This document shows positions 27,803 to 39,234 of a stretch of 64,000 nt of DNA, piece by piece. The first letter of the stretch is position 1. The number at the start of each line of letters is the position of its first letter. A model generated the notes under the pieces. That model saw nothing but the letters and a program-made list of their open reading frames with translations, was not told the origin of the DNA and did no database searches. Location of the stretch: the sequence record NC_017969.1. The stretch is one strand, 5' to 3'. This DNA is from Escherichia phage vB_EcoS_AKFV33. The translations under genes were made by a program, and so were the position numbers.

Positions 27803-27839
27803 AGCTGCTCCTAAATTTAGCTATCTCTAGCTATTTTAA

Positions 27840-27915
27840 TGGTAATTAGTAGTGGATTTGAACCACTGTAGTCGCTCCGTATGAAGGAGGTGCATAACCA
27901 CTCTGCCAACTAACT
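27840..27915 (-). tRNA. tRNA-Met or Ile2 (anticodon CAT)
   Basis: hand-folded cloverleaf; T-arm AGTGG-TTCAAAT-CCACT; anticodon loop TTCATAC; CCA encoded. Confidence 0.7.
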
Positions 27916-28011
27916 GTTATGTTTTACTAGACTAAGTAAGTATTCTTTATACTCTTTAGACCAATTAGCTTTTTTAAACTTTCCTGGACGCATAGTCTTA
28001 ATTCCTAAATT

Positions 28012-28088
28012 TGGTACTCCGGGAGGGATTTAAACCCCCGATCTCTCGGTTATCAGCCGAGTGCTTTAGATCGCTAAGCTACCGAAGC
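28012..28088 (-). tRNA. tRNA-Ile (anticodon GAT)
   Basis: anticodon stem CTCGG/CCGAG, loop CTGATAA; CCA encoded. Confidence 0.75.
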
Positions 28089-28089
28089 A

Positions 28090-28317
28090 TTAACATTTCA
28101 CAGCAGAACGTTTGCCATTTCTAGGTGCACCTGGAAGTCGTGCACGTTCTGCCATTCTTCGCTTAATCTTTGAGATATTTTCTAGTGTTTGTTCTTCAGG
28201 CTTAATACCTGAAACACTACACCACTGATTACCGTCCCATGCGGTAATGATCATAACACCATTACTCATGATCTTTTCTGTAAAAGTAATCCTCATTATA
28301 GCAACTCGTCTAAGCAA
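28090..28317 (-). CDS. hypothetical protein
   Basis: 75 aa ORF. Confidence 0.4.
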   Translation of the reverse strand: MLRRVAIMRITFTEKIMSNGVMIITAWDGNQWCSVSGIKPEEQTLENISKIKRRMAERARLPGAPRNGKRSAVKC

Positions 28318-28589
28318 GAGGTATATTTAAGTTTACCATCTTTATCTACTTTGATTTCGACTTCCGCCCGTGGTACTTGACGAACTACACCATGAATCAT
28401 CTTATAGCGAATGCCTTTAGCTAATTCATGATCTTTTGGAAAGACTTGCTTAACCGTTACTACCTTGTACCCATCACGCGGTGTTAATACAACTACTTGA
28501 TCACCTTCTTTGATTTTCCAAGAGCCAGGAAATTCGTAAGTATAGCGTTGACCACCAGTTTGGAACACAACAGAAAGATAACGTTTCAT
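28296..28589 (-). CDS. hypothetical protein
   Basis: 97 aa ORF; early promoter upstream. Confidence 0.45.
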   Translation of the reverse strand: MKRYLSVVFQTGGQRYTYEFPGSWKIKEGDQVVVLTPRDGYKVVTVKQVFPKDHELAKGIRYKMIHGVVRQVPRAEVEIKVDKDGKLKYTSCLDELL

Positions 28590-28619
28590 TTGGCTTCCCT
28601 CTCATTAATTTATATAAAT

Positions 28620-28649
28620 ATTATAACAATAAATAAGAGAGAAAGCAAA
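28620..28649 (-). promoter_or_regulatory. sigma70-type early promoter
   Basis: conserved ATTATAACA..AGCAAA (reverse complement TTTGCT-n17-TATAAT). Confidence 0.5.
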
Positions 28650-28663
28650 TGAATTTTTAAATT

Positions 28664-28738
28664 TGGTGCTCCCACCAGGAATCGAACCCGGTTCAGATGC
28701 TTACAAGGCAACTGCATCGCCAACAATGCTTTAGGAGC
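28664..28738 (-). tRNA. tRNA-Thr (anticodon TGT)
   Basis: T-arm with TTCGATT loop; anticodon loop CTTGTAA; CCA encoded. Confidence 0.7.
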
Positions 28739-28747
28739 GATAGCCCG

Positions 28748-28912
28748 TTATTTCAACGGGATTTCTTTTTCAATAACAGGAGACTTATCAGTCATGACTG
28801 TCATTGCCATTTGTTGTAGAAATTCAAAGGTGAAGGCTACACGTTCTTCACCAATCTCTACTTCGACACGTTTCTTTTGTTTATCGATCTTGACTTTTAG
28901 GTTATCAGCCAT
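28748..28912 (-). CDS. small hypothetical protein (54 aa)
   Basis: unlisted ORF MADNLKVKIDKQKK... between tRNAs. Confidence 0.3.
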   Translation of the reverse strand: MADNLKVKIDKQKKRVEVEIGEERVAFTFEFLQQMAMTVMTDKSPVIEKEIPLK

Positions 28913-28928
28913 CTTCGGGTTCTCGTTG

Positions 28929-29126
28929 CTACGCTACTTCTAGCCAGTCTGGTAGAAGAAACTTTGTACGAAATTCTTCGTAAGTTTCTTTGGGATAAAA
29001 GCTAAAACCTCCTTTCTCGTCATTCAGGATAACAGAGCCGTCAGTTTGTTCGTATGCTCGGTATGTTTCTCCAATAACAATAACTCGTTTATCGGTACTT
29101 TTATTACGAAATTCAAAAACGTGCAT
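28929..29126 (-). CDS. hypothetical protein
   Basis: 65 aa ORF. Confidence 0.4.
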   Translation of the reverse strand: MHVFEFRNKSTDKRVIVIGETYRAYEQTDGSVILNDEKGGFSFYPKETYEEFRTKFLLPDWLEVA

Positions 29127-29142
29127 AACATTTCCTTAAAGT

Positions 29143-29218
29143 TGGAGCGGCTAGAGGGAATCGAACCCTACTCGGCGAGGCTTGGAAGGCCTGCGACACA
29201 ACCCGTGTGCTTAACCGC
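29143..29218 (-). tRNA. tRNA-Gly (anticodon TCC)
   Basis: anticodon loop CTTCCAA; T-loop TTCGATT; CCA encoded. Confidence 0.7.
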
Positions 29219-29226
29219 TTATTGTT

Positions 29227-29302
29227 TGGCTGGAGAAGGAGGAATCGAACCTACCATTAACGGAGTCAAAGGCCGTTGTGCTAACCGTTACACTACTCTC
29301 CA
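29227..29302 (-). tRNA. tRNA-Gln (anticodon TTG)
   Basis: anticodon loop CTTTGAC; CCA encoded. Confidence 0.7.
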
Positions 29303-29308
29303 ATTATT

Positions 29309-29384
29309 TGGCTGGAGTGCCTGGGATCGAACCAGGAACCTTCGGAGTCAGAGGCCGACGATCTGCCAATTGATCTACACTCCA
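29309..29384 (-). tRNA. tRNA-Gln (anticodon CTG)
   Basis: tandem paralog of previous; anticodon loop CTCTGAC; CCA encoded. Confidence 0.7.
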
Positions 29385-29396
29385 ATAATTTTTATT

Positions 29397-29591
29397 CTAC
29401 GGAAAAATTGTTGTTGGCTCAGATTCTTCTAAACGTTTGCCTTCATGATCTACTCGAATAACTCCGCATCCTTCGCAAATCACAACTGCACCATAACCTT
29501 CTTTGACCTCAGCTTCTGTAATCAAACCAGAAAGATCACCAGTATCTCTGCCCCACATATCAATGGAGCATTGTTTGCAGAAATCAGCCAT
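29397..29591 (-). CDS. small zinc-ribbon-like protein
   Basis: 64 aa; CKQC...CEGC. Confidence 0.4.
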   Translation of the reverse strand: MADFCKQCSIDMWGRDTGDLSGLITEAEVKEGYGAVVICEGCGVIRVDHEGKRLEESEPTTIFP

Positions 29592-29616
29592 ATTTTATTT
29601 CCTATTTAAGTTAATT

Positions 29617-29693
29617 TGGGGTGGCTAGTGGAATTCGAATCCACATAGGCCTGATTCACAATCAGGATCATTAACCAATTATGATATAGCCAC
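29617..29693 (-). tRNA. tRNA-His (anticodon GTG)
   Basis: anticodon stem CCTGA/TCAGG, loop TTGTGAA; C73 discriminator; no G at position -1 encoded. Confidence 0.75.
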
Positions 29694-29922
29694 AATTGAA
29701 AACTCGCAGGGTTAGCGAAACCTTCCTCAATTAGCATGTTCTAGAATACTAATCAAGTTATCTCCTATTGCACGCAGCTCAAGACGAGTACGAATTTTCA
29801 ATTGTGGCGGCTCTCAGAAACTCTTCTACTCTAGCCTTAGCAGCTTACTCCCGAACGCATGTCGGGGAAGTCTTACTAAGAGCTTCGAATAGCACCGTTA
29901 CACTTTGAGCCATAGATGTATC

Positions 29923-30054
29923 AAGAAGTAGAAGGACTTGAACCTTCACGAGATAGACCATTTATCTCAGCCGCTTTATGAGGTATGTTGCGGGGAGTGG
30001 ATGTTCCCCATAAACCTTTTAGGCAGCCCCGTCTACCAATTCCGGCATACTTCA
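29923..30054 (-). ncRNA. atypical tRNA-like element (T-arm-like hairpin with extra hairpins)
   Basis: T-arm GAAGG-ACTTGAA-CCTTC, 6/7 complementary acceptor-like ends ~130 nt apart; no canonical anticodon loop found. Confidence 0.25.
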
Positions 30055-30059
30055 AGATT

Positions 30060-30154
30060 TGGAGGTAGGTAAGGGGATCGAACCCTTACACCGTATCACT
30101 ACGATCAACCGATTTCAAGTCGGAGTCCAGCGCCAGCCATTGGATTGACCTACC
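30060..30154 (-). tRNA. tRNA-Ser (anticodon TGA), class II
   Basis: long variable arm; anticodon loop CTTGAAA; CCA encoded. Confidence 0.7.
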
Positions 30155-30165
30155 ATTAAGTTATT

Positions 30166-30256
30166 TGGCGGAAGAGGAGAGATTTGAACTCTCAAGCCGT
30201 TTTACCAGTCAGCCACTTTCCAAGTGGTTTTCGTCGCCAATTCGATTTGCTCTTCC
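30166..30256 (-). tRNA. tRNA-Ser (anticodon GGA), class II
   Basis: perfect 7-bp acceptor stem; anticodon loop TTGGAAA; long variable arm. Confidence 0.65.
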
Positions 30257-30292
30257 AATAATAAGATGATGCCTCTATCACACCAGGCAGTT

Positions 30293-30367
30293 ACGCCTCG
30301 CTGGGATTCGAACCCATTAAAACAGCTCAACCGAGATAGTAGGTTTAATTTACTCTGACCATCAAAT
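30293..30367 (-). ncRNA. tRNA-like fragment (T-arm and 3' acceptor half without matching 5' half)
   Basis: TTCGAAT T-loop with flanking stem, but no complementary acceptor 5' strand. Confidence 0.25.
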
Positions 30368-30368
30368 T

Positions 30369-30445
30369 TGGTGCGTGACAAGGGATTCGAACCCTCAAAA
30401 CCCGACTTCTAAGGACGGTATGTATGCCCATTCCATCAATCACGC
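30369..30445 (-). tRNA. tRNA with anticodon TAG (Leu-type anticodon, class-I architecture)
   Basis: anticodon loop CTTAGAA; short variable loop; A73 discriminator; CCA encoded. Confidence 0.6.
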
Positions 30446-30450
30446 GTATT

Positions 30451-30529
30451 TGGTGGAGAATAACGGAATCGAACCGTTCTGATGTCCTCGGTGCAAGCGA
30501 GGTGTCCACTCCATGCAGACCCATTCCCC
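30451..30529 (-). tRNA. tRNA-Ala (anticodon TGC)
   Basis: anticodon stem CCTCG/CGAGG, loop CTTGCAC; G3:U70 identity pair present. Confidence 0.75.
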
Positions 30530-30767
30530 AAATTCTTTAGTTTACTAAGGCTATTAGCTCGGCGTAACTACAGCACCTTCGCTTAGAGCGGAAGGAACTA
30601 CGTCATCTCGCAAACCCAATACACTATTCAGTTGCCGCTGAATCTAGTGGACCAATCTAGAACTTCTCCCGAATCGTAGGGATCGTGCTTTTTGGCAGCC
30701 AGTCCTAGGTCGAGCTAATACCTTAGTGAACTATGATGAGGATTTCTCCTCATCAATTTATATAAAT

Positions 30768-30797
30768 ATTATAACAAGAAATTAAGCATCAAGCAAG
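30768..30797 (-). promoter_or_regulatory. sigma70-type early promoter facing a non-coding island
   Basis: conserved promoter motif; only a 12-codon ORF, then ~200 nt of GC-richer non-coding sequence downstream. Confidence 0.45.
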
Positions 30798-31142
30798 TAC
30801 ATTTTTGCAGACTTCTTGTATTTCCTTAACATCGCTAATGAAAAGGTAATCGGAACTTCCAGAGTGCATACTAGACATTAGTACACCACTATCTGGTGCA
30901 TCTTCTTTTAACGTAATGCCTAACCAGAACTCGGCAAAACTAGGTGTTACCTCACCTTGACTTGCCTTGAATACATCGGCTTCTGTGATCTCCTGACCAG
31001 TAGAAAGTCCCATGTACGGTACGTTCAGATCAATATCTTTGTAGAACTCAGCTAAATCTTGTTCGAAGTCCCAACCTTTAGAGATAGCGAACTCCATTGT
31101 CACATGACCGAAATAACCTTGAATCTTGCTTGATAATTGCAT
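30789..31142 (-). CDS. hypothetical protein
   Basis: track ORF starts at a TTG (31148); first ATG at 31142. Confidence 0.45.
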   Translation of the reverse strand: MQLSSKIQGYFGHVTMEFAISKGWDFEQDLAEFYKDIDLNVPYMGLSTGQEITEADVFKASQGEVTPSFAEFWLGITLKEDAPDSGVLMSSMHSGSSDYLFISDVKEIQEVCKNVLA

Positions 31143-31167
31143 TTGCAATTCCTTATTTTGAGTTAAT

Positions 31168-31241
31168 TGGTACCCGGTGATAGAATCGAACTATCTCAAC
31201 CGCCATGTAAAGACGGGGTTCTCCCATTAAACTAACCGAGC
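31168..31241 (-). tRNA. tRNA-Val (anticodon TAC)
   Basis: anticodon loop TTTACAT; CCA encoded. Confidence 0.65.
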
Positions 31242-31245
31242 AAAT

Positions 31246-31324
31246 TGGTAGATCGCCTGGGACTTGAACCCAGAACCTTCCGATTAAAAGTCGGATGCTA
31301 CTAAACCTATTGAGCTAGCGATCT
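31246..31324 (-). tRNA. tRNA-Lys (anticodon TTT)
   Basis: perfect anticodon stem TCCGA/TCGGA, loop CTTTTAA; CCA encoded. Confidence 0.75.
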
Positions 31325-31513
31325 ATTAGTAACCATTGTATACTTCTTTAATAGAGTGAACTTTCAAGTAAGGGTGATTAGTACTAAACTCTGCCATTAC
31401 TTCATCCCAATTTCTACCATAATGAGCAAGTAAGGATTTTGATGTATTCTTACCTAAGCGTTTGTCACTTACTACTAATCGAAATACTTTCATTTCGAAA
31501 TCCTCTATTAAAA

Positions 31514-31591
31514 TGGAAGCGGGTGCAGGAATCGAACCTACCTCTTTCTAGCTTATGAGACTAGCGATCTCTACCAGAGATCTAACCCGCA
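31514..31591 (-). tRNA. tRNA-Met (anticodon CAT)
   Basis: anticodon loop CTCATAA; position 1:72 mismatch; CCA encoded. Confidence 0.7.
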
Positions 31592-31597
31592 ATTGTT

Positions 31598-31675
31598 TGG
31601 TCTCCGTGGGAGGATTTGAACCCCCGACCCTATCGCCCCAAACGAAACGCTCTGGCCAAACTGAGCTACACGGAG
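31598..31675 (-). tRNA. tRNA-Pro (anticodon TGG)
   Basis: perfect acceptor stem; anticodon loop TTTGGGG; CCA encoded. Confidence 0.75.
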
Positions 31676-31679
31676 AATA

Positions 31680-31838
31680 TTATTTCTTCAACCACAACAA
31701 AGATAAGCCAAGCATACTAAAGCCACTAACTAATCCGATACATTTTTCTTCTATAGTAAAAGTATCTAGATTAAATGCTGTTATAGCTATTGGCATACAC
31801 CATAATGCCATAAAAACTTGAGCTATCTTGTGTTTCAT
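31680..31838 (-). CDS. small membrane protein (52 aa)
   Basis: unlisted ORF MKHKIAQVFMALWCMPIAITAF... directly downstream of early promoter. Confidence 0.3.
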   Translation of the reverse strand: MKHKIAQVFMALWCMPIAITAFNLDTFTIEEKCIGLVSGFSMLGLSLLWLKK

Positions 31839-31870
31839 TTTGCTTTCCTTCTCTTCACTTTATAAAATAT

Positions 31871-31900
31871 ATTATACAGATAGTTAAGCAGAATAGCAAA
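31871..31900 (-). promoter_or_regulatory. sigma70-type early promoter
   Basis: ATTATACAG..AGCAAATGAATTTTT motif. Confidence 0.5.
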
Positions 31901-32048
31901 TGAATTTTTAATAAATTTACTTATTGTGTAGGCCACCTGGAGGCTACCAACCCCACGGCTGACAAAGAAGTTTGCGAGACCTCTCTTAAATGCCAGAATA
32001 GACCCGCCGATCTATCGGAACCTACATAATAAGTAAACTTTATAGTGT

Positions 32049-32169
32049 CATTCTAGACAGGACTCGAACCTGTTATCACTTGTGCGGACTTACGAGAACC
32101 ATTCTTTCACTCGAATCGAACGAGCTTCTGCCCTCGCCAAGCTGGTTTCCCCACCAACCACGCTAGAAT
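32049..32169 (-). ncRNA. long tRNA-like RNA (~121 nt): perfect 7-bp acceptor-like stem, D-arm, T-arm and an extra internal TTCGATT hairpin
   Basis: ATTCTAG/CTAGAAT ends, T-arm ACAGG-TTCGAGT-CCTGT; no canonical anticodon loop. Confidence 0.35.
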
Positions 32170-32291
32170 GTTTGATTGTTTTCAGTGCAAGAGTCCGAGT
32201 CTTGGACACGACCGCTTTGCAAGTACATAGGCAGCTTATCATGAGTCAGCACTTCCGAATTGCTAGCTCCGTGTTCTGCACTGAAATTTTA

Positions 32292-32639
32292 TTAGTTTAA
32301 CCTTAAAGTATTATCTACTTCACCATTAATTGTTCGGCATTCCTCTGGAATTGCTGGAGTAGCCTTGTATTCCCACCACTCAGCTCCATCATATTCCCCA
32401 CGTTCTAGCCAGGTTCCATCGGCAAACCATACATTACCATAAAGTAGTTGTCCACCATAACCAGAATCATACTCAAAGTCTAGGTTATTAAGAAAATCCC
32501 CAATATCTTCTTCTGTATACCCCAGAGGTAATACCCAAACTTTTTTGTCCCCATAATACCCGAATTCTATTTTAATACACTTAACTTCAGAATTAGTATT
32601 TTTTAAGGCAAGTAACAACTCTTCTTTAGCATTACGCAT
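32292..32639 (-). CDS. hypothetical protein
   Basis: 115 aa ORF. Confidence 0.45.
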   Translation of the reverse strand: MRNAKEELLLALKNTNSEVKCIKIEFGYYGDKKVWVLPLGYTEEDIGDFLNNLDFEYDSGYGGQLLYGNVWFADGTWLERGEYDGAEWWEYKATPAIPEECRTINGEVDNTLRLN

Positions 32640-32665
32640 AGTATATTTCTCGTGCTAGTTTAGTT

Positions 32666-32741
32666 TGGTACACCCACTAGGACTTGAACCTAGAACCCTC
32701 CGCTTAAGAGGCGGTAGCTCTAACCATTGAGCTATGGATGT
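32666..32741 (-). tRNA. tRNA-Lys (anticodon CTT)
   Basis: anticodon loop CTCTTAA; CCA encoded. Confidence 0.65.
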
Positions 32742-32918
32742 ATTAAATTACTTTTTCCAGTTCATCAGCTATGGCTTTGATTTTTTCAAAGTTTACATCA
32801 CTAATAATGATACCTTCTAGTGACAGAGATATTCTAGCATTTTTCGTAGCAGATTCTTTTATCTGCTCTATCTCTTCTGGAGTAAACTCTCTACGTTCCA
32901 TAGCTAACCTACCTTATT

Positions 32919-32995
32919 TGGCGCGACCGATGGGATTTGAACCCACATTCCCTCCCGTGACAGGGGAGTACCATTACCAAGCCAGCCCCGGTCGC
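32919..32995 (-). tRNA. tRNA-Asp (anticodon GTC)
   Basis: perfect acceptor and anticodon stems; loop CTGTCAC; position cross-checked against ORF-track frame. Confidence 0.8.
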
Positions 32996-33004
32996 ATAAT
33001 TCAT

Positions 33005-33190
33005 TTACTCAGCTTTGAGTTTTTCAATAGCTGCATTAAGTTCTTTAAGAAACTCTTTTCGTACATTAAGACGGTTGAGACTTACTAGTATATCATGTTT
33101 AAGTTCTTCGATGTATTTCTTCTCAACTTCAATATTGTTGATAGTGCTATCACGATGAACTTCTAGCTGCGCAATTACATTCTTGGACAT
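33005..33190 (-). CDS. hypothetical coiled-coil protein
   Basis: 61 aa ORF. Confidence 0.4.
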   Translation of the reverse strand: MSKNVIAQLEVHRDSTINNIEVEKKYIEELKHDILVSLNRLNVRKEFLKELNAAIEKLKAE

Positions 33191-33292
33191 GCTTGTTTCC
33201 TCAGTTATTAATGAAAATGGTATCTGTGGCTGAATTCGATGTCAGCAATGATAGCTGGTTGGCTACCGGTTTACTTAACTCTACACAGAATT

Positions 33293-33375
33293 TGGCGGGC
33301 CGTGTAGGATTCGAACCTACGTTGTCTTTCGACATGGATTAACAGTCCACCGCCAAACCGCTTGGCTAACGACCC
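33293..33375 (-). tRNA. tRNA-Asn (anticodon GTT) with extended variable region
   Basis: D-stem GCCA/TGGC, anticodon loop CTGTTAA; 83 nt. Confidence 0.6.
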
Positions 33376-33381
33376 TGAATT

Positions 33382-33456
33382 TGGAGCACCCTGCTGGAAT
33401 TGAACCAACCTAGACGATTTTGCAGACCGTCACCTAAGCCACTCGGACAAGGATGC
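33382..33456 (-). tRNA. tRNA-Cys (anticodon GCA)
   Basis: anticodon loop CTGCAAA; CCA encoded. Confidence 0.65.
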
Positions 33457-33458
33457 AA

Positions 33459-33647
33459 TTATTCTTTATCTTCCGGCCATGAAAAGTGGATTAGATTTGC
33501 TGGCCCAAGAGTCCTGCAATAATATCCATCACCATGATCATAACCACATGTTCCACATTCACACATCTTAAATTCACCAAACTTAGTGAATAAGATTTCT
33601 GTGTCACAACAGTCGAACTTAACTAATTTAGCTTTTGGCTTCTTCAT
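33459..33647 (-). CDS. Cys-rich small protein
   Basis: 62 aa; CCDTE..CECGTCGYDHGDGYYC. Confidence 0.4.
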   Translation of the reverse strand: MKKPKAKLVKFDCCDTEILFTKFGEFKMCECGTCGYDHGDGYYCRTLGPANLIHFSWPEDKE

Positions 33648-33886
33648 TTAACACGCTCCGGTAGATCTTCGAGGTTATATTCCGTTGCTACACCAGCAGC
33701 ATCTAATAGTAAACCCATATGTTTAAGGATTTTAGTGATAGATTCACCTTCTGCTTCTTCTACAAAAGAACGTAGATGAACAAAGTCAATACCCCCATCC
33801 ATACCAGAGAAAATGTTTAGTAAGCGGAGCATTACCAGCTTACGTTCATTCAATTCTTGTTCTGTCATGTTGCTTCTCCAGTTCAA
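33644..33886 (-). CDS. hypothetical protein
   Basis: 80 aa ORF; early promoter upstream. Confidence 0.4.
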   Translation of the reverse strand: MNWRSNMTEQELNERKLVMLRLLNIFSGMDGGIDFVHLRSFVEEAEGESITKILKHMGLLLDAAGVATEYNLEDLPERVK

Positions 33887-33918
33887 TTTATGTAATTATT
33901 ATACAGAACTTTTGGAAA

Positions 33919-34206
33919 CTAAGCAACTACATTTTTTAAGAATTTGATACCTTTCTTTTTCTTCTTATATTTCCACGTTAATGGATTCTGTCGATTGTGA
34001 ACGCTTGAGATCTTTGTCTCGTCAAAGTTCTTCAATATCATGTAATCACAGGATAATTGTTCTAATGGAATGTGATTACCGTCAAAAGCATATACATAAG
34101 GCTGTTGACTAGCACGATAATGATAGACTTTGTTAATTCTACGTTTCAGCGACTTATCCGCGCAGTAAATAAAGAAGTTTTCAGGATGCATCAGCAGCTC
34201 CTTCAA
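33919..34206 (-). CDS. hypothetical protein
   Basis: 95 aa ORF (TTG start in track). Confidence 0.4.
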   Translation of the reverse strand: MKELLMHPENFFIYCADKSLKRRINKVYHYRASQQPYVYAFDGNHIPLEQLSCDYMILKNFDETKISSVHNRQNPLTWKYKKKKKGIKFLKNVVA

Positions 34207-34208
34207 TT

Positions 34209-34284
34209 TGGTGCACCCTGTTCGTATCGAACGAACCTCTCAAGCTCTTCAGGCAAGCGCTAATCCATCTCAGCTAAAGGTGCA
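34209..34284 (-). tRNA. tRNA-Phe (anticodon GAA), tentative
   Basis: anticodon loop CTGAAGA with weak stem; T-stem GTTCG/CGAAC. Confidence 0.5.
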
Positions 34285-34289
34285 AATTT

Positions 34290-34366
34290 TGGCAAACCTA
34301 CTAGGACTCGAACCTAGACCGTACGGTTTTGGAGACCGACATGCTGTCCAGTAACACTCTAGGAAT
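34290..34366 (-). tRNA. tRNA-Trp (anticodon CCA)
   Basis: anticodon loop CTCCAAA; two mismatches in acceptor stem. Confidence 0.7.
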
Positions 34367-34374
34367 GCAGAAAT

Positions 34375-34451
34375 TGGCGTCCTGTGCGGGGATCGAACCC
34401 GCAAATCCTACCTTGAAAGGGTAGTGACTTTACCAGTTTGTCTAACAGGGC
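34375..34451 (-). tRNA. tRNA-Glu (anticodon TTC)
   Basis: perfect anticodon stem CTACC/GGTAG, loop CTTTCAA. Confidence 0.75.
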
Positions 34452-34458
34452 TTAAATT

Positions 34459-34549
34459 TGGTGTTGGATGATGGAGTCGAACCACCCGAGACCCTTCCGA
34501 GTCGGCAGATTTACAGTCTGCTTCGCTACCTCTACGATACTAATCCAAC
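34459..34549 (-). tRNA. tRNA-Tyr (anticodon GTA), class II
   Basis: perfect acceptor and anticodon stems (GCAGA/TCTGC), loop CTGTAAA, long variable arm. Confidence 0.8.
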
Positions 34550-34677
34550 ATATTTAAAAATACTAAAATACTAGTTTAAACACTTTTAAATATGTTTCCA
34601 AATTAGATAACTATTATACCAAGTTTTAAGGCACTGAGCAAGTCAAATTTTAAAGAACTTGCTCAGTGCTGTATTAG

Positions 34678-34953
34678 TTAGTCGAACTTAGGAGTGACAG
34701 CTAAGGAGAATGGAAGTTCGAAAACTTCTTCACCCTCATCACTAACAGTAATTACACGGCCTTTAAGTTCAGACATTGAAATATCAATATCAGCTTTTGC
34801 ATCTGGAGCCATTCCAGCTTCAACACATTTAGCTTTAACTTCCGGCAGAAGTTCTACATCGTAGAAATAAAGCCATTCAATCTCACCTTCCCAGCCTTCC
34901 CAGGATTTACAGATTGCACTTTCAATACCAGTTGCTATAACACGATTTTGCAT
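34678..34953 (-). CDS. hypothetical protein
   Basis: 91 aa ORF. Confidence 0.45.
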   Translation of the reverse strand: MQNRVIATGIESAICKSWEGWEGEIEWLYFYDVELLPEVKAKCVEAGMAPDAKADIDISMSELKGRVITVSDEGEEVFELPFSLAVTPKFD

Positions 34954-35043
34954 TAGTTAACTCCTTCATCAATTTATATAACTATTATATCAGAAATTTA
35001 AAGCAAAAGGCAAGTACATTTTTAAAAATTCTATTTGGAGGAG

Positions 35044-35250
35044 CTAAACTCCAGATTCTTCAGCCAAGTCTAGACTAATAAGAGATATAGCCATAATTGC
35101 TGCTGTGTGCTCTTTTTCTCCAGTCTCTTTAGCTAGAGTTATAATATCAAGAATTTGCTTATGAAAGTCTGCAACCTCTTGAGTCATACCTGCTTCAGCA
35201 ATCATGCCTTTAAGCATGAAACGTTGTGCGGTAATTTCAGGATTAGCCAT
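35044..35250 (-). CDS. hypothetical protein
   Basis: 68 aa ORF. Confidence 0.4.
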   Translation of the reverse strand: MANPEITAQRFMLKGMIAEAGMTQEVADFHKQILDIITLAKETGEKEHTAAIMAISLISLDLAEESGV

Positions 35251-35425
35251 GTTGTTTCTCCAGTTTCATCTTTAATAGTCTACAAATAAAATCAATGTCT
35301 TCATCCGTGCCTAAATCTCTATCTTCAAGAGTTGCCTTGAAGTTTTTAGTCAATTCCATGAGGATAACTTCTCTAGAACGACGTGTTGGCGGAGGTGGAG
35401 GTCTATACATCTTATTTCCTTAATT

Positions 35426-35502
35426 TGGTAGGGGTGGTGGGATTCGAACCCACAAAACCTGAATTTTAAGTCCAGTACCTATGCCAATTCGATTACACCC
35501 CC
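35426..35502 (-). tRNA. tRNA with anticodon TAA (Leu-type anticodon, class-I architecture)
   Basis: anticodon stem CTGGA/TTCAG, loop CTTAAAA; A73; CCA encoded. Confidence 0.6.
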
Positions 35503-35603
35503 GTGTAATCAGTTTATTAGTTGATACATATTATAGCCTAGTGAAAATCCTACTACTAGTCCCACAAACCAACCAATATAATAATCTTTTAGTTTCACAG
35601 ATA

Positions 35604-35789
35604 TTACCCTCTTTCAATATCTAGAGAAATACCACAGTTAGGATTAATACCTGTACCATTGCAATTTGGGCAAACCCAGATATTGCAAAAAGTATCTCCT
35701 GCTTCTGCATCAGAACTTTCACCAATTCCCCTACACTCAGGGCAGGCACATTCTTCTAGCTCTTGCTTGAGTTCTTGAAACTTGGACAT
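35604..35789 (-). CDS. DnaJ-type zinc-finger small protein
   Basis: 61 aa; CPECRGIG and CPNCNGTG repeats. Confidence 0.45.
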   Translation of the reverse strand: MSKFQELKQELEECACPECRGIGESSDAEAGDTFCNIWVCPNCNGTGINPNCGISLDIERG

Positions 35790-35798
35790 ATAGTCTCC

Positions 35799-35987
35799 TT
35801 AGTCAATTACTTTTGAGGCCTCAAGGTAGTCGATATAGTGTACGTTTTCTACCGTAATCATATAATCTGCCACTTTATCCATAGCTTGGGCTTCAGAGGT
35901 AGCTCTGGCTAACCTATATCCTTTTTTATATTCATCAGGGTATTCTCTATCTTGAATAAACACAACATAAACTATGTATAATTCCAC
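35799..35987 (-). CDS. small hypothetical protein
   Basis: track ORF 35799-36134 reads through a tRNA gene; trimmed to GTG with SD AGGGGA. Confidence 0.35.
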   Translation of the reverse strand: MELYIVYVVFIQDREYPDEYKKGYRLARATSEAQAMDKVADYMITVENVHYIDYLEASKVID

Positions 35988-36007
35988 TTGTAATCCCCTA
36001 ATTAAGT

Positions 36008-36085
36008 TGGTGGCTCCCCGAGGATTCGAACCTACGTACCTTCCAGTTATGAGCTGGGTGCTCATACCATATGAGCTTGAGAACC
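36008..36085 (-). tRNA. tRNA-Met or Ile2 (anticodon CAT)
   Basis: D-stem GCTC/GAGC, anticodon loop CTCATAA; position cross-checked against ORF-track frame. Confidence 0.65.
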
Positions 36086-36091
36086 AGAATT

Positions 36092-36180
36092 TGGCGGAAG
36101 AAGTGGGAATCGAACCCACAAGGCTATATTTCAAACCGACAGATTAGCAATCTGCTGCAATACCGTTATGCTATTCTTCC
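36092..36180 (-). tRNA. tRNA-Ser (anticodon GCT), class II
   Basis: perfect 7-bp acceptor stem; anticodon loop TTGCTAA; long variable arm. Confidence 0.75.
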
Positions 36181-36201
36181 GAATTTATAAGATATATTAT
36201 A

Positions 36202-36720
36202 TTAGAAATTTAGCTTCATAGCAAGAAAATTTTTCAAGTTTTCGGTAGACATCTCATCCACATCTACAGGAGAAACAAAGCCGTTTAATTTTCTAGCAAA
36301 TTTTTCACCCGCAGGATCGTTATTCCCGACAGCTACCAATTTAAAAGGTAATAATTTCAGTTGCTTTAATAACGCTTTTCCTGGAGAAGAACCCAACATT
36401 GCTAGGGCTGGATAACCAGCGTTATGTAACGCAACTGCCTTAAATACAGATTCAGCGATCAATACTACTTTTTCATCTCCATTGAGAGTTTCTAATCCCC
36501 ATACACACTGGGTAGTAGAATAGGTAAAATATTTAGCTTCAAAGGGACACTTACCATGACCTTTTGGAGCAGAAGGATTATAAGTTTGATAGCCTCTCAA
36601 CATCCCAGAGAAATCATACAACGGGACTGTTAGCCATCCTTCCGGACTTAACCAGCAATGATATTTATCTGCATCAAATCCTCTAGATAGAAGATGTTGT
36701 GTTAATTCATCAACACCCAT
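36202..36720 (-). CDS. small TOPRIM-like domain protein
   Basis: 172 aa; VVLIAESVFKA..YPALAMLGSS..LVAVGNNDPAGEKFARKL resembles the TOPRIM acidic motif arrangement; call is low-certainty. Confidence 0.5.
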   Translation of the reverse strand: MGVDELTQHLLSRGFDADKYHCWLSPEGWLTVPLYDFSGMLRGYQTYNPSAPKGHGKCPFEAKYFTYSTTQCVWGLETLNGDEKVVLIAESVFKAVALHNAGYPALAMLGSSPGKALLKQLKLLPFKLVAVGNNDPAGEKFARKLNGFVSPVDVDEMSTENLKNFLAMKLNF

Positions 36721-36816
36721 GTTTAATCTCCTAGTTAGTTTTATAATTACATTATATAGAAAAGCCCTGCGCTCTCCAGGAAACGCAGGGCTTACTTTAG
36801 ATGTTACATGCGGGTA

Positions 36817-37764
36817 TTATTTATTACGCATATCCATGATCATTTGGCCATCATAACCAGTACCAACTACCGTCTGTGGTACACCACCTTGATACTTCTG
36901 AGCACGGATCATTTCAACTTCCAGTTGCTTCCAGCGAATCATCTCAGGAGTAATGGTACGTTGCAATGCGGCGTTAGCTTCAGCTTCTTTCTTAGCTGCG
37001 TACAGTTTAGCATCTGCGTCACGTTCATTAGCAATAGCTTGGTTGTTGCGAGCTTCACGATCTGCTTCTGCTTGTTTAACTTTTTGCTGTGCTTCCTGTT
37101 CAACACGAGCTAATTCAGCTTTAGCAGCATTAACCTGTTCTTCACGAACTTTGGTATTCTGTACCTGTTCCATGATTACCGGTGGCAAAGTAATATCCTG
37201 AAGGAACACCTGCTTAACTGTGTAACCATATGGGCGTGCATACTCTTCAACTTCCTGTTGAATTGCAGTTTGCAATTGAGCCTGAATTTTAGCATCAAAT
37301 AAATCTTGTGCTTTAGGTACAGACTTACCAAACTCACGAATAGTAGACAGTAATTTTTCAGTTACATATTTGTCTAACGCTTGATCCTGAGTACCTGCAT
37401 TAATACGGTTAATCGGTGCTTTAGAACCATCAAACTGCAACATAACAGTCAGGTCAACAGTGGATTTAAACTTATCCTGACTAGGAACCTGAAGTTTATC
37501 TAATTTTAGAGCAATATCTTTAGTACTAAAAGTATCAAAAGAAGCAAAAGGATTTACAATATGGAAACCAGGTAATACTGGATTAGGATCAACTTTACCC
37601 AAGAAAGTCTGGGTCTTAACAGTACCGTCTTGAACAACGGTATAGGAGTTAAGAGCTAGAACTAAACCTGCTAAACCAACTACAGCACCAATCCCCCAAC
37701 GTTTAATAGTACGAATTACTTTCTGCTCAGAAGTCAGTTCTTTCATATTTTTAGTATTAAACAT
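36817..37764 (-). CDS. SPFH/band-7 family membrane protein (prohibitin/HflC-like)
   Basis: 315 aa; N-terminal TM segment, SPFH-like core, C-terminal Ala/Glu/Gln-rich coiled coil. Confidence 0.65.
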   Translation of the reverse strand: MFNTKNMKELTSEQKVIRTIKRWGIGAVVGLAGLVLALNSYTVVQDGTVKTQTFLGKVDPNPVLPGFHIVNPFASFDTFSTKDIALKLDKLQVPSQDKFKSTVDLTVMLQFDGSKAPINRINAGTQDQALDKYVTEKLLSTIREFGKSVPKAQDLFDAKIQAQLQTAIQQEVEEYARPYGYTVKQVFLQDITLPPVIMEQVQNTKVREEQVNAAKAELARVEQEAQQKVKQAEADREARNNQAIANERDADAKLYAAKKEAEANAALQRTITPEMIRWKQLEVEMIRAQKYQGGVPQTVVGTGYDGQMIMDMRNK

Positions 37765-37798
37765 ATATTTCCTTTGTTTTAGTTACAGTTAATAAAAT

Positions 37799-37873
37799 TG
37801 GCCGAGGTGACAGGATTCGAACCTGCATAAAGGAATTTAGAAGACTCCTGCCTCTCCCTTAGACTACACCCCG
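37799..37873 (-). tRNA. tRNA-Arg (anticodon TCT)
   Basis: anticodon loop CTTCTAA; CCA encoded. Confidence 0.7.
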
Positions 37874-38375
37874 TTTAAGTATTTTTAAGAACTCTCGTAA
37901 AAACTCTTAAAAATACAGACGATACCGGGAGAGTCATAAGTCTCACTCATTAAGTATTTCAAGACAAAATACAGTAACGTCTATTATTTTCCAGTTTAAG
38001 TCAGGGTGACTTAGTGGTTATGTCCTGCGGTATATTGAGGACTCGGTTAGGCTTGGGGTCATGACTTCCCGCCTTTTGCTGCTACTCAACAGGAATTATC
38101 GCGAATTACCTGTGCTATTGTGCACCATTAGTGACATCTCTCATGTCAGCATTTCCCACTTTGTGGATAGCTTGAAAAACTACTCCGATGTGGAGAAAGA
38201 ACTTCACTATCCTAGAATACCTTCTAAAGTTCTTCTTTAGCCTGGACATAGTTAAACCGTAATAAAACTATTCAGCAGACTGGTTGGTTAGTCTGGAACC
38301 AACTACCGCGTGGTTTAGGCAGTGCGCAACTAACCTCGGAAGCTTTTACGTTAAAAGCATCAGTTATCCAGTTCT

Positions 38376-38447
38376 TACCGACCGTAGGATTCGAACCTAC
38401 ATCTTCCACCAGTTACGGCTTGATAATACCAATTATACTAGGACGGC
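38376..38447 (-). ncRNA. tRNA-like element with canonical T-arm but no resolvable anticodon arm
   Basis: T-arm GTAGG-TTCGAAT-CCTAC; acceptor pairing 6/7. Confidence 0.3.
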
Positions 38448-38525
38448 AGTGTTACTACATAAGTGATTTCCACACCCCACTATTTATAAATTAGATGCCT
38501 AATTATCATCTAATTTATGAATATA

Positions 38526-38554
38526 TTATATAGAATTTATAAGCATTTAGCAAA
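38526..38554 (-). promoter_or_regulatory. sigma70-type early promoter reading into the tRNA cluster
   Basis: ATTATATAG..AGCAAATGAATTTTT motif. Confidence 0.5.
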
Positions 38555-38561
38555 TGAATTT

Positions 38562-38996
38562 TTAGAAAAATTCGCTAGCAATCAAAGCAGTTGTTTTACC
38601 TTCATAACGCCCTGGAAACTCTGCCTTAATGGTTTTCATTAAGAGAGCTTTGGTAATGCCGGGGTTTAGCTTAACCAGTTCTGCAAAGTATTTACGAATT
38701 TCAGTTTCAGTCAGTTGACTTGGCTGATACTCTTGCAGCATGGAATAAAGCAGTTGCTCATAGTCTACATCAGTAGGAACTTTCGTACCAACTTTAATAG
38801 CGCGCTGCTTTGCATTTTCTAGAGCCTTAATCTGAGCTTTCAGATAGGCTACGAACTCGGTTCGAGTAACAATATCTTTATCAATACGTTGCAGGTCGCC
38901 AATCATGGTCTGAAGATTAAGCGCCCGCTCTTTATCACCGTGAGTACGTGCTAGACTAAGCAGTCCACGAAGGGTCATTAGGATATTTTCACCCAT
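38562..38996 (-). CDS. hypothetical protein
   Basis: 144 aa ORF. Confidence 0.45.
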   Translation of the reverse strand: MGENILMTLRGLLSLARTHGDKERALNLQTMIGDLQRIDKDIVTRTEFVAYLKAQIKALENAKQRAIKVGTKVPTDVDYEQLLYSMLQEYQPSQLTETEIRKYFAELVKLNPGITKALLMKTIKAEFPGRYEGKTTALIASEFF

Positions 38997-39234
38997 TATT
39001 TCATCCCCAGTGCTTGGTTAAAAGATTGCTCTGTCATAACTGCTGAGACTTTGGCGAAATCAAACTTTTTAGGGTTCGTAGTGATTTCAGCAACGTTAGA
39101 AGTTTTAACAGTTTTCGTAGTACGAATACCGCGAGTGTTAACACCAATAATTACAACTGATTTCATATTTCGCTTCCTCTCATTAATTTATGAAAGTATT
39201 ATACAGAAATTTAAGTAGTTAAGCAAGTAACTTT

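What the first reader, a model, noticed from the sequence alone, without database searches (positions are those of the whole stretch)
30530..38375. Promoter-driven non-coding islands inside the tRNA cluster (candidate small RNAs)
Several conserved early promoters face stretches without credible ORFs: 30530-30767 (only a 12-codon ORF, then GC-richer sequence), 32170-32290 (bounded by the inverted repeat CAGTGCA..TGCACTG, about 100 nt) and 37880-38375 (~0.5 kb, only a spurious 60-aa ORF). GC content is above the local average, consistent with structured RNA.
Basis: seen in the sequence. Interest (0 to 1): 0.5.

Follow-up and report, generated by a model that had tools for sequence, protein, structure and literature searches.

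The report
Phage T5 stable RNAs, rediscovered
The "non-coding islands" are the structured stable RNAs of unknown function (RNA2H and RNAX, plus one unannotated spacer element) already annotated in the tRNA gene cluster of phage T5; they are real, folded and conserved across the whole T5 phage family, but nobody knows what they do.

Summary
The window is a T5-like phage (Tequintavirus), and its tRNA cluster lies on the minus strand. Island 1 (30530-30767) is T5 RNA2H. Island 3 (37880-38375) is the body of T5/DT57C RNAX. GenBank annotates both as "stable RNA with unknown functions", each behind a named early promoter (P13b, P16-17).

Island 2 (32170-32290) is an unannotated ~105-nt stem-closed element. 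It has no promoter of its own and sits directly 5' of the annotated T5 RNAs rna2 and RNAIV.

RNA2H is clearly a structured RNA: fold z = -5.6, 63 consensus pairs and 13 compensated pairs. A covariance model finds it in five more Demerecviridae genera, and its 22-bp closing stem covaries there. The T5-annotated ends fall inside that stem with a 2-nt 3' overhang, which suggests RNase III excision.

RNAX is a mosaic: 5' hairpin, pseudo-tRNA, conserved modules, AU-rich terminal hairpin, then tRNA-Arg. Module C has 39 pairs, 7 compensated. Much of this layout persists in Klebsiella and Pectobacterium phages.

No island matches an Rfam family, and the ORFs inside RNAX show no coding signature. Island 2 is nearly invariant, so its fold cannot be tested.

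Verdict: real, non-coding, already known as features; function unknown.

The parts
30768..30796 (-). Early sigma-70 promoter (-35 TTGCTT, 17-nt spacer, -10 TATAAT); homologue of T5 promoter P13b
   Evidence: Motif match. T5 annotates promoter P13b directly upstream of rna2H. The same promoter is found in rutana, Uniso31 and My1.
30734..30756 (-). 5'-terminal hairpin of the RNA2H primary transcript (UUGAUGAGGAGAAAUCCUCAUCA)
   Evidence: Fold. Relatives keep the stem through changes such as GGGG/CCCC in L009. My1 and DU_PP_V have a different hairpin at the same place.
30536..30733 (-). RNA2H structured domain: 22-bp closing stem P1 around a multi-helix core. The mature RNA as annotated in T5 maps to 30720-30549 (172 nt).
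   Evidence: 96.5% identical to T5 RNA2H over 172/172 nt. MFE z = -5.58. 63 pairs, 13 compensated, 98.7% of cells paired against 28-43% in slid registers. CM hits in five other genera.
32180..32286 (-). Island 2 element: ~105-nt stem-closed module (UUUCAGUGCAG...CUUGCACUGAAA). Not annotated in T5 and has no promoter of its own.
   Evidence: Fold with an 11-bp closing stem, z only -1.65. 218 records, all at least 94% identical. Present without the upstream CDS, between tRNA-Lys and rna2, in TrudiGerster and SB9.
32046..32170 (-). rna2 homologue: tRNA-like RNA with acceptor stem, D-arm, T-arm GGUUCGAGUCC and an expanded anticodon arm carrying a second T-loop-like hairpin
   Evidence: 96% identical to T5 rna2. 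Fold. Compensated stems against rutana. BLAST homologue in Pectobacterium phage DU_PP_V.
31925..32027 (-). RNAIV homologue (103 nt, stem-closed)
   Evidence: 98% identical to T5 RNAIV. Fold. One hairpin is replaced by a compensated variant in rutana.
38525..38553 (-). Early promoter (-35 TTGCTA, 17-nt spacer, -10 TATAAT); homologue of T5 promoter P16-17 that drives RNAX
   Evidence: T5 RefSeq annotates 'promoter P 16-17' immediately before rnaX.
38486..38518 (-). 5'-terminal hairpin of the RNAX transcript
   Evidence: Fold, seen in both the MFE and the centroid structure.
38376..38447 (-). Degenerate tRNA (pseudo-tRNA) embedded in RNAX
   Evidence: Rfam tRNA 35.5 bits, but no ARAGORN call. T-arm and acceptor stem are compensated between window, DT57C and rutana, while the anticodon arm is not conserved. 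Other records annotate it as tRNA-OTHER, tRNA-Pro, tRNA-Sec or tRNA-Leu.
38262..38375 (-). RNAX module B: a variable compensated hairpin followed by a near-invariant block (AGUUGCGCACUGCC.AAACCACGCGGUAGUUGGUUCCAG.CUAACCAACCA)
   Evidence: Alignment with DT57C, rutana and PMBT31. Part of it is conserved in Sugarlandvirus.
37994..38161 (-). RNAX module C: multi-helix domain closed by GUGG/CCAC, with a hairpin whose loop AGUCAUGA lies within the 8-nt palindrome GUCAUGAC
   Evidence: 39 pairs, 7 compensated, 97.9% paired against 30-49% in slid registers. The CM hits Sugarlandvirus at E 0.003-0.009. The loop motif occurs once per RNAX in six genera with different stems.
37879..37916 (-). AU-rich terminal hairpin of about 17 bp, ending 5 nt before tRNA-Arg(UCU) (37873-37799). 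No U-tract follows it.
   Evidence: Fold. The sequence is conserved in Tequinta-, Epseptima-, Sugarland- and Hongcheonvirus whether a tRNA or a CDS follows.

Best explanation
The islands are the T5-type 'stable RNAs': structured, non-coding RNAs that head or punctuate the early tRNA operons of T5-like phages.

Island 1 is RNA2H. A strong early promoter (P13b) starts a transcript with a protective 5' hairpin. Next comes a ~185-nt domain closed by a 22-bp stem, then tRNA-Ala and tRNA-Leu. I infer that host RNase III cuts the closing stem and releases the 172-nt RNA that T5 annotates, and that RNase P and the usual tRNA nucleases free the tRNAs.

Island 3 is RNAX, a ~640-nt transcript from promoter P16-17. 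Its parts, in order, are a 5' hairpin, a degenerate tRNA, conserved modules B and C, an AU-rich terminal hairpin, and tRNA-Arg(UCU). The tRNA-like element and the downstream tRNA would serve as RNase P processing handles.

Island 2 is an extra stem-closed module in the same RNA array, just 5' of the tRNA-like rna2 and RNAIV. It is transcribed by read-through.

Shown here: identity with the T5 features, promoters, secondary structure with covariation, absence of coding signal, and conservation across Demerecviridae.

Inferred: the processing enzymes.

Unknown: the function in trans. My preferred guess is that these are trans-acting structured RNAs serving tRNA biology or counter-defence in what has been called the phage's anti-defence island.
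For: Identity.
- The window is 96% identical to Tequintavirus IME178.
- T5 RNA2H maps to 30720-30549 at 96.5%, rna2 and RNAIV at 96-98%, and DT57C rnaX to 38494-37874 at 95.8%.
- The annotations read 'stable RNA with unknown functions', with promoters P13b and P16-17.

Structure of RNA2H.
- Fold z = -5.58.
- 63 consensus pairs, 13 compensated, covariation score 0.167 against at most 0.048 in slid registers.
- CM R2 finds full-length homologues in Hongcheonvirus (E 4e-16), Sugarlandvirus (1e-14), Myunavirus (2e-10) and Priunavirus (1.5e-5).
- P1 shows up to 4 pair types per position.

Structure of RNAX.
- Module C has 7 compensated pairs against 0-1 in controls.
- The pseudo-tRNA stems are compensated.
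- The architecture is kept in DU_PP_V and Sugarlandvirus.

Selection. The RNA2H core is invariant between Tequinta- and Epseptimavirus, while third codon positions of the flanking CDSs are only 81% and 44% identical.

Processing. The T5/DT57C annotated RNA2H ends lie at alignment column 14 and two nucleotides 3' of its partner column 209. That is a duplex end with a 2-nt 3' overhang inside a 22-bp stem, the geometry RNase III leaves (established knowledge).

Non-coding.
- Substitutions in the RNAX ORFs are spread 6/10/12 and 9/11/11 over codon positions.
- The variable hairpin of RNA2H differs by a 23-nt indel.
- The ATG of the 50-aa ORF spanning island 2 and rna2 appears to be lost in TrudiGerster.
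Against: - No transcript data were available, so 'stable RNA' rests on GenBank annotation, whose experimental basis I could not read.
- Island 2 has weak fold support (z = -1.65; 12 of 200 shuffles fold as well) and no informative variation.
- The RNAX sub-blocks fold only modestly better than shuffles (z -1.4 to -2.2).
- The RNAX modules occur in different combinations in different genera, so RNAX may not act as one unit.
- T5 mutants lacking most of the tRNA region, RNAX included, are viable in the laboratory (PMC11464382; st0 record), so any function is conditional.
- RNase III involvement is inferred from geometry alone.
Confidence: 0.8

Rival explanations
1. The islands are evolutionary debris. 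In this reading they are decayed tRNA genes and scars of recombination or homing-endonuclease traffic in a fast-changing tRNA cluster. They are transcribed only because they sit in operons and have no function of their own.
For: - A degenerate tRNA sits inside RNAX, and rna2, RNA1 and rna3 carry tRNA-like arms.
- RNAX is mosaic, with blocks present or absent among genera.
- Insertions and HNH endonuclease genes are common nearby.
- Deletion mutants are viable.
- Island 2 has no diverged homologues.
Against: - RNA2H keeps a full-length fold with compensated stems across seven genera in at least two subfamilies.
- Its core is invariant where neighbouring synonymous sites have diverged.
- Module C and the AGUCAUGA hairpin are retained with co-varying stems.
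- RNA2H, RNAIV and modules B and C show no tRNA similarity.
Confidence: 0.08
2. They are cis-acting leaders, for example attenuators, riboswitch-like sensors or processing enhancers, that control expression or maturation of the downstream tRNAs rather than acting in trans.
For: - Both RNA2H and RNAX sit directly between a strong promoter and tRNA genes.
- EH3 changes three segments of RNA2H in a way that keeps two mutually exclusive pairings. These are helix P2 and the hairpin UCUAG..CUAGA, and that pattern would fit a switch.
Against: - The downstream gene differs among phages: tRNA-Ala, tRNA-Leu or a CDS with its own ribosome-binding site.
- No terminator/antiterminator pair was found, and no intrinsic terminator follows either RNA on the transcribed strand.
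- No riboswitch or leader family matches at E up to 10.
- The T5 annotators list them as separate stable RNAs.
Confidence: 0.12
3. The stretches encode small proteins that ordinary gene callers miss or call inconsistently.
For: - ORFs of 44-60 aa exist on both strands of RNAX, and a 50-aa ORF spans island 2 and rna2.
- Many GenBank records annotate 'hypothetical protein' over these stretches.
- In rutana two of the RNAX ORFs fuse into an 85-aa ORF.
Against: - Substitutions show no third-position excess.
- ORF lengths and starts differ between relatives: 59, 48 and 40 aa; 45+44 against 85 aa.
- The candidate start is a GTG inside the pseudo-tRNA with no Shine-Dalgarno sequence.
- Indels of 1, 2, 4 and 23 nt occur.
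- Base changes are explained by compensated helices.
Confidence: 0.03

Closest known systems
Phage T5 / DT57C misc_RNA genes RNA2H, rnaX, rna2 and RNAIV (GenBank AY692264, NC_005859, NC_027356)
   Same: Sequence is 95-98% identical. The order relative to promoters P13b, P13a and P16-17 and to tRNA-Ala, tRNA-Arg(UCU) and tRNA-Pro is the same. These are the same genes in another Tequintavirus.
   Different: T5's RNAX is longer (719 nt), with an insertion or duplication near the 3' part of module C. The island 2 element is present in T5 but is not annotated there as an RNA.
RNA species I and II in the phage T4 tRNA gene region
   Same: These are non-tRNA stable RNAs encoded inside a phage tRNA gene cluster. 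Their presence in maps of the T4 tRNA region is shown in the PMC2330249 Fig. 1 legend. That they are co-processed with the tRNAs and of unknown function is my recollection.
   Different: Homology was not tested, because no T4 sequence was fetched. T4 belongs to an unrelated phage family, so this is an analogy of context only.
GOLLD and ROOL large ornate RNAs
   Same: They are large structured RNAs of unknown function encoded in phages and prophages, 'often near tRNA islands', and tRNAs sometimes lie inside GOLLD's linker (PMC12286853). RNAX is ~640 nt, lies in a phage tRNA island and contains a tRNA-like element.
   Different: No match to any Rfam model at E up to 10. I take GOLLD and ROOL to be among the 4227 models searched, from memory. 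RNAX is mosaic and its folding energy is only modestly better than shuffles. Multimerisation is untested.
Long-range stems flanking rRNAs and phage T7 early RNase III sites
   Same: In both, a stem of about 22 bp formed by the 5' and 3' flanks brackets a structured RNA. The annotated ends of RNA2H give a 2-nt 3' overhang.
   Different: Cleavage was not demonstrated here, and the excised RNA is not an rRNA or an mRNA.

Membership tests
T5 stable RNA RNA2H | Full-length sequence homology to the T5 rna2H gene | tested here: met
   172/172 nt aligned at 96.5% identity, at window 30720-30549.
T5 stable RNA RNA2H | Position between promoter P13b and tRNA-Ala/tRNA-Leu | tested here: met
   Promoter at 30796-30768, RNA2H, then tRNA-Ala 30529-30451 and tRNA-Leu 30445-30369.
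T5 stable RNA RNA2H | Accumulates as a discrete stable transcript in infected cells | not testable with these tools
   Only the GenBank note 'stable RNA with unknown functions' is available.
T5 stable RNA RNAX | Sequence homology to rnaX, and position between promoter P16-17 and tRNA-Arg(UCU) | tested here: met
   95.8% identical to DT57C rnaX over 621 nt. T5 RefSeq shows the same order: promoter, rnaX, tRNA-Arg.
tRNA (Rfam RF00005) | Cloverleaf scoring above the Rfam gathering threshold inside the islands | tested here: not met
   No tRNA hit inside 30530-30767, 32170-32290 or 37880-38375, even at E up to 10. Only the flanking pseudo-tRNA 38447-38376 scores, at 35.5 bits.
GOLLD / ROOL large ornate RNAs | Match to the family covariance model | tested here: not met
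   cmscan of 27500-39000 against all 4227 Rfam 15 models at E up to 10 gave no such hit.
GOLLD / ROOL large ornate RNAs | Encoded in a phage next to or within a tRNA island | tested here: met
   RNAX lies inside the tRNA cluster and contains a tRNA-like element. The family's context is described in PMC12286853.
GOLLD / ROOL large ornate RNAs | Homo-oligomeric RNA-only assembly | not testable with these tools
   The only hint is a conserved hairpin loop within the palindrome GUCAUGAC.
Classical trans-acting bacterial sRNA with intrinsic terminator | Stem-loop plus U-tract terminator at the 3' end | tested here: not met
   No terminator-like site at the 3' ends of the islands on the minus strand. 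The RNAs run straight into tRNAs.
RNase III substrate | Duplex of about 20 bp or more (two helical turns) | tested here: met
   RNA2H P1 has 22 pairs, kept at that length in seven genera.
RNase III substrate | Product ends with a 2-nt 3' overhang | tested here: met
   The T5/DT57C annotated ends map to alignment column 14 and to two nucleotides 3' of its pairing partner, column 209. This depends on the annotated ends being experimental.
RNase III substrate | Cleavage by RNase III in vivo or in vitro | not testable with these tools
   Needs comparison with an rnc mutant or an in vitro assay.
Small protein-coding gene | Conserved reading frame with third-position bias of substitutions | tested here: not met
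   Substitutions are spread 6/10/12 and 9/11/11 over codon positions, and ORF lengths and starts are not conserved.
T4 tRNA-region RNA species I/II | Sequence or structure homology | not tested
   No T4 sequence was fetched, so only the shared context is noted.

The most novel reading that the evidence does not exclude
RNA2H and RNAX may not be mere processing by-products. They could be ancient, family-wide functional RNAs of Demerecviridae that act in trans. RNAX would then be the enterobacterial counterpart of the GOLLD/ROOL class: a large RNA in a phage tRNA island, with an embedded tRNA-like element, possibly self-associating through the conserved palindromic loop GUCAUGAC. RNA2H would be a sequence-specific protein- or RNA-binding module excised by RNase III. 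Either could serve counter-defence or manipulation of host tRNA and translation, inside what has been called the anti-defence island of T5-like phages.
Probability: 0.15. Interest if true: 0.7.

Novelty: already known. Interest (0 to 1): 0.35.

Why it matters
T5's "stable RNAs with unknown functions" have sat in GenBank records for years without a family description, a structure or a function, and none is in Rfam. This analysis adds three points.

- RNA2H is a well-defined structured RNA with a covarying 22-bp closing stem, found in at least seven Demerecviridae genera.
- RNAX keeps a recognisable architecture across subfamilies.
- The annotated RNA2H ends fit RNase III excision.

The surrounding tRNA region has recently been shown to carry counter-defence functions: tRNA-Lys against PARIS, tRNA-Tyr against retron Ec78 (Eco7), and the Rad protein against retrons. 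These conserved RNAs are therefore obvious untested candidates in that arms race. For the scan itself, the finding is a correct rediscovery of annotated features, not a new kind of element.

Tried and rejected
- Rfam at gathering and at permissive thresholds found nothing in the islands except noise such as snoU30 at E = 5.
- BLAST of RNA2H against 5,426 E. coli genomes gave no match, so it is not host-derived. The search was too insensitive to find short antisense targets.
- Pairwise local alignment of all the cluster's non-tRNA RNAs showed no paralogy. In particular RNA2H is not detectably similar to rna2. Only rna2 and the pseudo-tRNA share a T-arm.
- The metagenome scan and two IMG/VR scans with conserved RNA2H and RNAX motifs returned only near-identical T5-like sequences and added no diversity.
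- BLAST with the Pectobacterium RNA2H homologue found only itself, so distant members could be reached only with the covariance model.
- CM R1 (module C) gave only noise in Providencia PR1 and no full-length hit in the two Pectobacterium phages. There only the AGUCAUGA hairpin motif is recognisable.
- Literature searches found no paper in the held library on the T5 stable RNAs or on T5 transcriptomics of this region.
- Pfam and PHROGs searches of the flanking small CDSs gave no clue linking a protein to the RNAs.
- The idea that hairpin loops mimic anticodon loops, as decoys for anticodon nucleases, was considered and dropped. By my reading of the sequence, no 7-nt loop in RNA2H has the U33/purine-37 pattern.

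Full report
**What the window is.** ARAGORN finds 23 tRNA genes on the minus strand between 27840 and 37873, and Rfam adds two more, at 36011-36085 and 38376-38447. Megablast of 30000-38600 hits 583 phage records. The best is Escherichia phage IME178 (Tequintavirus) at 96% identity. The finding therefore lies in the early tRNA region of a T5-like phage, and all genes there are read on the minus strand.

**Mapping the islands to known annotation.** Two carefully annotated relatives were fetched.
- The T5 st0 record AY692264 lists misc_RNA features rna2, RNAIV, RNA2H, RNA1, RNAI and RNAIII, and promoters P13a and P13b.
- DT57C (NC_027356) and T5 RefSeq (NC_005859) also list rnaX. It is 636 nt in DT57C and 719 nt in T5, is noted as 'stable RNA with unknown functions', follows 'promoter P 16-17' and runs up to tRNA-Arg(UCU).

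BLAST of these features onto the window gives:

| Feature | Window coordinates | Identity |
|---|---|---|
| RNA2H | 30720-30549 | 96.5% |
| rna2 | 32170-32046 | 96% |
| RNAIV | 32027-31925 | 98% |
| rnaX | 38494-37874 | 95.8% |

So island 1 is RNA2H and island 3 is the body of RNAX. Island 2 (32170-32290) is the unannotated ~120 nt between the stop codon of a 115-aa CDS (32639-32292) and the start of rna2.

**Checking the observation.** The early-promoter motif TTGCT-N18-TATAAT occurs 30 times in the window against 3.85 expected. No copy faces island 2. The inverted repeat of island 2 is real and closes an 11-bp stem spanning 32286-32180. GC content is 0.429, 0.455 and 0.405 for the three islands, against 0.40 for the cluster and 0.51 for the tRNAs. 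The GC argument is therefore weak for islands 1 and 2 and void for island 3. Rfam matches nothing inside any island, even at E up to 10.

**Island 1 (RNA2H) is a structured RNA.**
- The 241-nt stretch folds at -82.9 kcal/mol against -57.5 +/- 4.6 for shuffles, z = -5.6.
- The fold has a 5' hairpin at 30756-30734 and a 22-bp stem (P1) that closes a multi-helix core.
- Twenty-nine distinct homologues from Tequinta- and Epseptimaviruses give an RNAalifold consensus of 63 pairs, 13 of them compensated.
- On that alignment 98.7% of cells pair, against 28-43% when partners are slid by 1-3 columns. The covariation score is 0.167 against at most 0.048.
- Two peripheral hairpins are replaced by different, compensated versions in Epseptimavirus. 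One differs by a 23-nt indel, which is incompatible with a reading frame.
- The core is invariant. Third codon positions of the adjacent 119-aa CDS are only 81% identical between the same two phages, and those of the CDS upstream of RNAX only 44%. That points to selection on sequence as well as on pairing.

**RNA2H is family-wide.** A covariance model built from this alignment (R2) finds full-length homologues that BLAST cannot see:

| Phage | Genus | Bits | E-value |
|---|---|---|---|
| Pectobacterium DU_PP_V | Hongcheonvirus | 64.9 | 4e-16 |
| Klebsiella Uniso31 | Sugarlandvirus | 59.3 | 1e-14 |
| Pectobacterium My1 | Myunavirus | 44 | 2e-10 |
| Providencia PR1 | Priunavirus | 26.5 | 1.5e-5 |

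Each hit lies in a gap with no annotated feature. In the seven-genus alignment the 22 pairs of P1 are kept with up to four different pair types per position. That alignment was fitted to the model, so it leans towards the structure, but the compensations are plain in the raw sequences. The layout of promoter, 5' hairpin, RNA2H and then tRNA recurs in rutana and My1, and in Uniso31 without the hairpin. DU_PP_V has the hairpin and a downstream tRNA-Leu but no strict promoter match. The downstream sequences in Uniso31 and My1 look like tRNAs to my eye and are unannotated. The downstream gene is tRNA-Ala, tRNA-Leu or, in PR1 and some Epseptimaviruses, a CDS.

**A processing inference for RNA2H.** The ends that T5 and DT57C annotate for RNA2H fall inside P1. 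The 5' end is alignment column 14. The 3' end is two nucleotides beyond column 209, which is the pairing partner of column 14. A 22-bp duplex cut to leave a 2-nt 3' overhang is what RNase III produces (established knowledge). I therefore infer that RNase III excises RNA2H from the operon transcript, much as it excises rRNA precursors. This depends on the annotated ends being experimental, which I could not verify.

**Island 3 (RNAX) is a composite.** Reading 5' to 3' on the minus strand, it contains:
- the promoter at 38553-38525;
- a 5' hairpin at 38518-38486;
- a conserved leader;
- a degenerate tRNA at 38447-38376;
- module B at about 38375-38262;
- a variable segment with a 36-nt insertion specific to Tequintavirus;
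- module C at 38161-37994;
- a second variable segment;
- an AU-rich terminal hairpin of about 17 bp at 37916-37879;
- tRNA-Arg(UCU), 5 nt further on.

**Evidence for the RNAX parts.**
- The pseudo-tRNA keeps its T-arm and acceptor stem through compensated changes, but its anticodon arm differs between genera. Records annotate it variously as tRNA-OTHER, Pro, Sec or Leu.
- Module C gives 39 consensus pairs, 7 compensated. 97.9% of cells pair against 30-49% in slid registers, where compensated pairs number 0-1.
- The blocks occur in different combinations in Epseptima- and Sugarlandviruses.
- A model of module C hits the syntenic place in two Sugarlandviruses at E 0.003-0.009.
- The hairpin with loop AGUCAUGA, inside the palindrome GUCAUGAC, occurs once per RNAX in six genera with quite different stems.
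- The terminal hairpin is conserved in four genera whether a tRNA or a CDS follows.
- Pectobacterium phage DU_PP_V has the same order: promoter, long leader, pseudo-tRNA, ~510 nt with no annotated gene, terminal hairpin, tRNA-Arg.
- Thermodynamic support for the sub-blocks is modest, z = -1.4 to -2.2.

**Coding potential.** RNAX contains ORFs of 44-60 aa on both strands, and two of them fuse into an 85-aa ORF in rutana. Substitutions between the window and rutana are spread 6/10/12 and 9/11/11 over codon positions. ORF lengths and starts vary, the candidate start is a GTG inside the pseudo-tRNA, and short indels occur. The 12-codon ORF of island 1 lies in the 5' hairpin and is absent where that hairpin is replaced. 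In TrudiGerster the substitutions fall where the ATG of the 50-aa ORF spanning island 2 and rna2 lies, so that start appears to be lost. I conclude that none of the islands is explained by a conserved small protein.

**Island 2 stays unresolved.** Its fold is only marginally better than shuffles: z = -1.65, and 12 of 200 shuffles fold as well. All 218 copies in the phage collection are at least 94% identical, with no diverged homologue, so covariation cannot be assessed. One useful fact is that in Epseptimaviruses TrudiGerster and SB9 the element sits between tRNA-Lys and rna2 without the upstream CDS. It therefore behaves as an independent module of the RNA array, not as the 3' UTR of that CDS. 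Other Epseptimaviruses lack it altogether. The adjacent rna2 is a tRNA-like RNA with an acceptor stem, D-arm and T-arm GGUUCGAGUCC. Its anticodon arm is expanded and carries a second T-loop-like hairpin. Its stems are compensated against rutana, and a homologue exists in DU_PP_V.

**Function.** Nothing here reveals it.
- The RNAs show no detectable similarity to one another, and RNA2H has no match in E. coli genomes.
- T5 mutants that lack most of the region, including RNAX, grow in the laboratory (PMC11464382; st0 record). Any role is therefore conditional.
- The same region has been called an anti-defence island. It supplies tRNA-Lys against PARIS. It also supplies tRNA-Tyr and the TOPRIM protein Rad against retrons (bioRxiv 10.1101/2023.03.15.532788). 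A related 172-aa TOPRIM-type protein is encoded at 36202-36720.
- GOLLD and ROOL are large phage RNAs of unknown function 'often near tRNA islands', sometimes with tRNAs in their linkers (PMC12286853). RNAX resembles them in context and size but matches no Rfam model.
- The T4 tRNA region likewise carries 'RNA species I and II' (PMC2330249).

**Verdict.** The features are already annotated in T5 and DT57C, so the finding is a rediscovery. This analysis adds a covariation-supported structure and a family-wide distribution for RNA2H. It also adds a conserved modular architecture for RNAX and an RNase III processing hypothesis. Function remains the open question.

Noticed in passing
window 29695-30056 (minus strand): Homologues of three more T5 stable RNAs lie just outside the finding: RNA1 (30056-29912, 85.5%), RNAI (29911-29805, 89.7%) and RNAIII (29800-29695, 99%). 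T5 RNA1 has tRNA-like D- and T-arms, and T5 RNAI ends in an acceptor-like stem plus GCCA.
   Followed up: partly
window 33218-33290 (minus strand): Exact match to DT57C 'rna3' ('putative stable RNA'). It is a 73-nt degenerate tRNA-like RNA ending in ACCA that neither ARAGORN nor Rfam calls as a tRNA.
   Followed up: no
window 30064-30154, 30170-30256 and 29146-29219 (minus strand): Weak tRNA-Sec-model hits of 20.7-37.6 bits, below threshold. Two of them fall where T5 has its two tRNA-Ser genes. These look like long-arm tRNAs that both ARAGORN and the Rfam gathering threshold miss, or like decaying copies.
   Followed up: no
window 36011-36085 (minus strand): A tRNA found by Rfam (38.2 bits) but not by ARAGORN, next to tRNA-Ser. 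DT57C annotates tRNA-Ile(CAU) at the corresponding position.
   Followed up: no
window 36202-36720 (minus strand): A 172-aa TOPRIM/primase-like protein (PHROG 849, weak Pfam Toprim_2). It is the same kind of protein as the anti-retron protein Rad (189 aa, TOPRIM) described in T5-family phages. No direct sequence comparison was made.
   Followed up: partly
window 38562-38996 (minus strand): The CDS just upstream of the RNAX promoter is a YqeY/GatB-like protein, annotated 'tRNA amidotransferase' in relatives. It stays next to RNAX from Tequintavirus to Pectobacterium phage My1, with a distant homologue in Providencia phage PR1, although its sequence diverges to 32-57% identity.
   Followed up: partly
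window 38057-38068; L046 1402-1413; L047 3716-3727; L049 18563-18574: The conserved RNAX hairpin loop AGUCAUGA lies in the 8-nt palindrome GUCAUGAC. A self-complementary loop could mediate kissing-loop self-association. My1 has a 1-nt shorter version.
   Followed up: no
L004 12002-12150, also L005, L011 and L030; L008 and L021 upstream of RNAX: In some relatives the 5' hairpin of RNA2H carries a ~95-nt insertion within its loop. In many relatives an extra ~150-160 nt sits between the RNAX promoter and the pseudo-tRNA leader. Both may be further RNA modules.
   Followed up: no
L029 (Salmonella phage EH3) 2658-2880: EH3 changes three RNA2H segments together: CCUAGG to CUUAGG, UCUAG to UCUGA, and CUAGA to UCAGA. 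This preserves both helix P2 and a mutually exclusive hairpin, which may indicate two alternative conformations.
   Followed up: partly
L047 (Pectobacterium phage DU_PP_V) 9133-9592, 9881-10616 and 14566-14875: Several more gaps of 300-730 nt with no annotated gene lie in the tRNA cluster of this distant relative. They may hold further unannotated structured RNAs.
   Followed up: no
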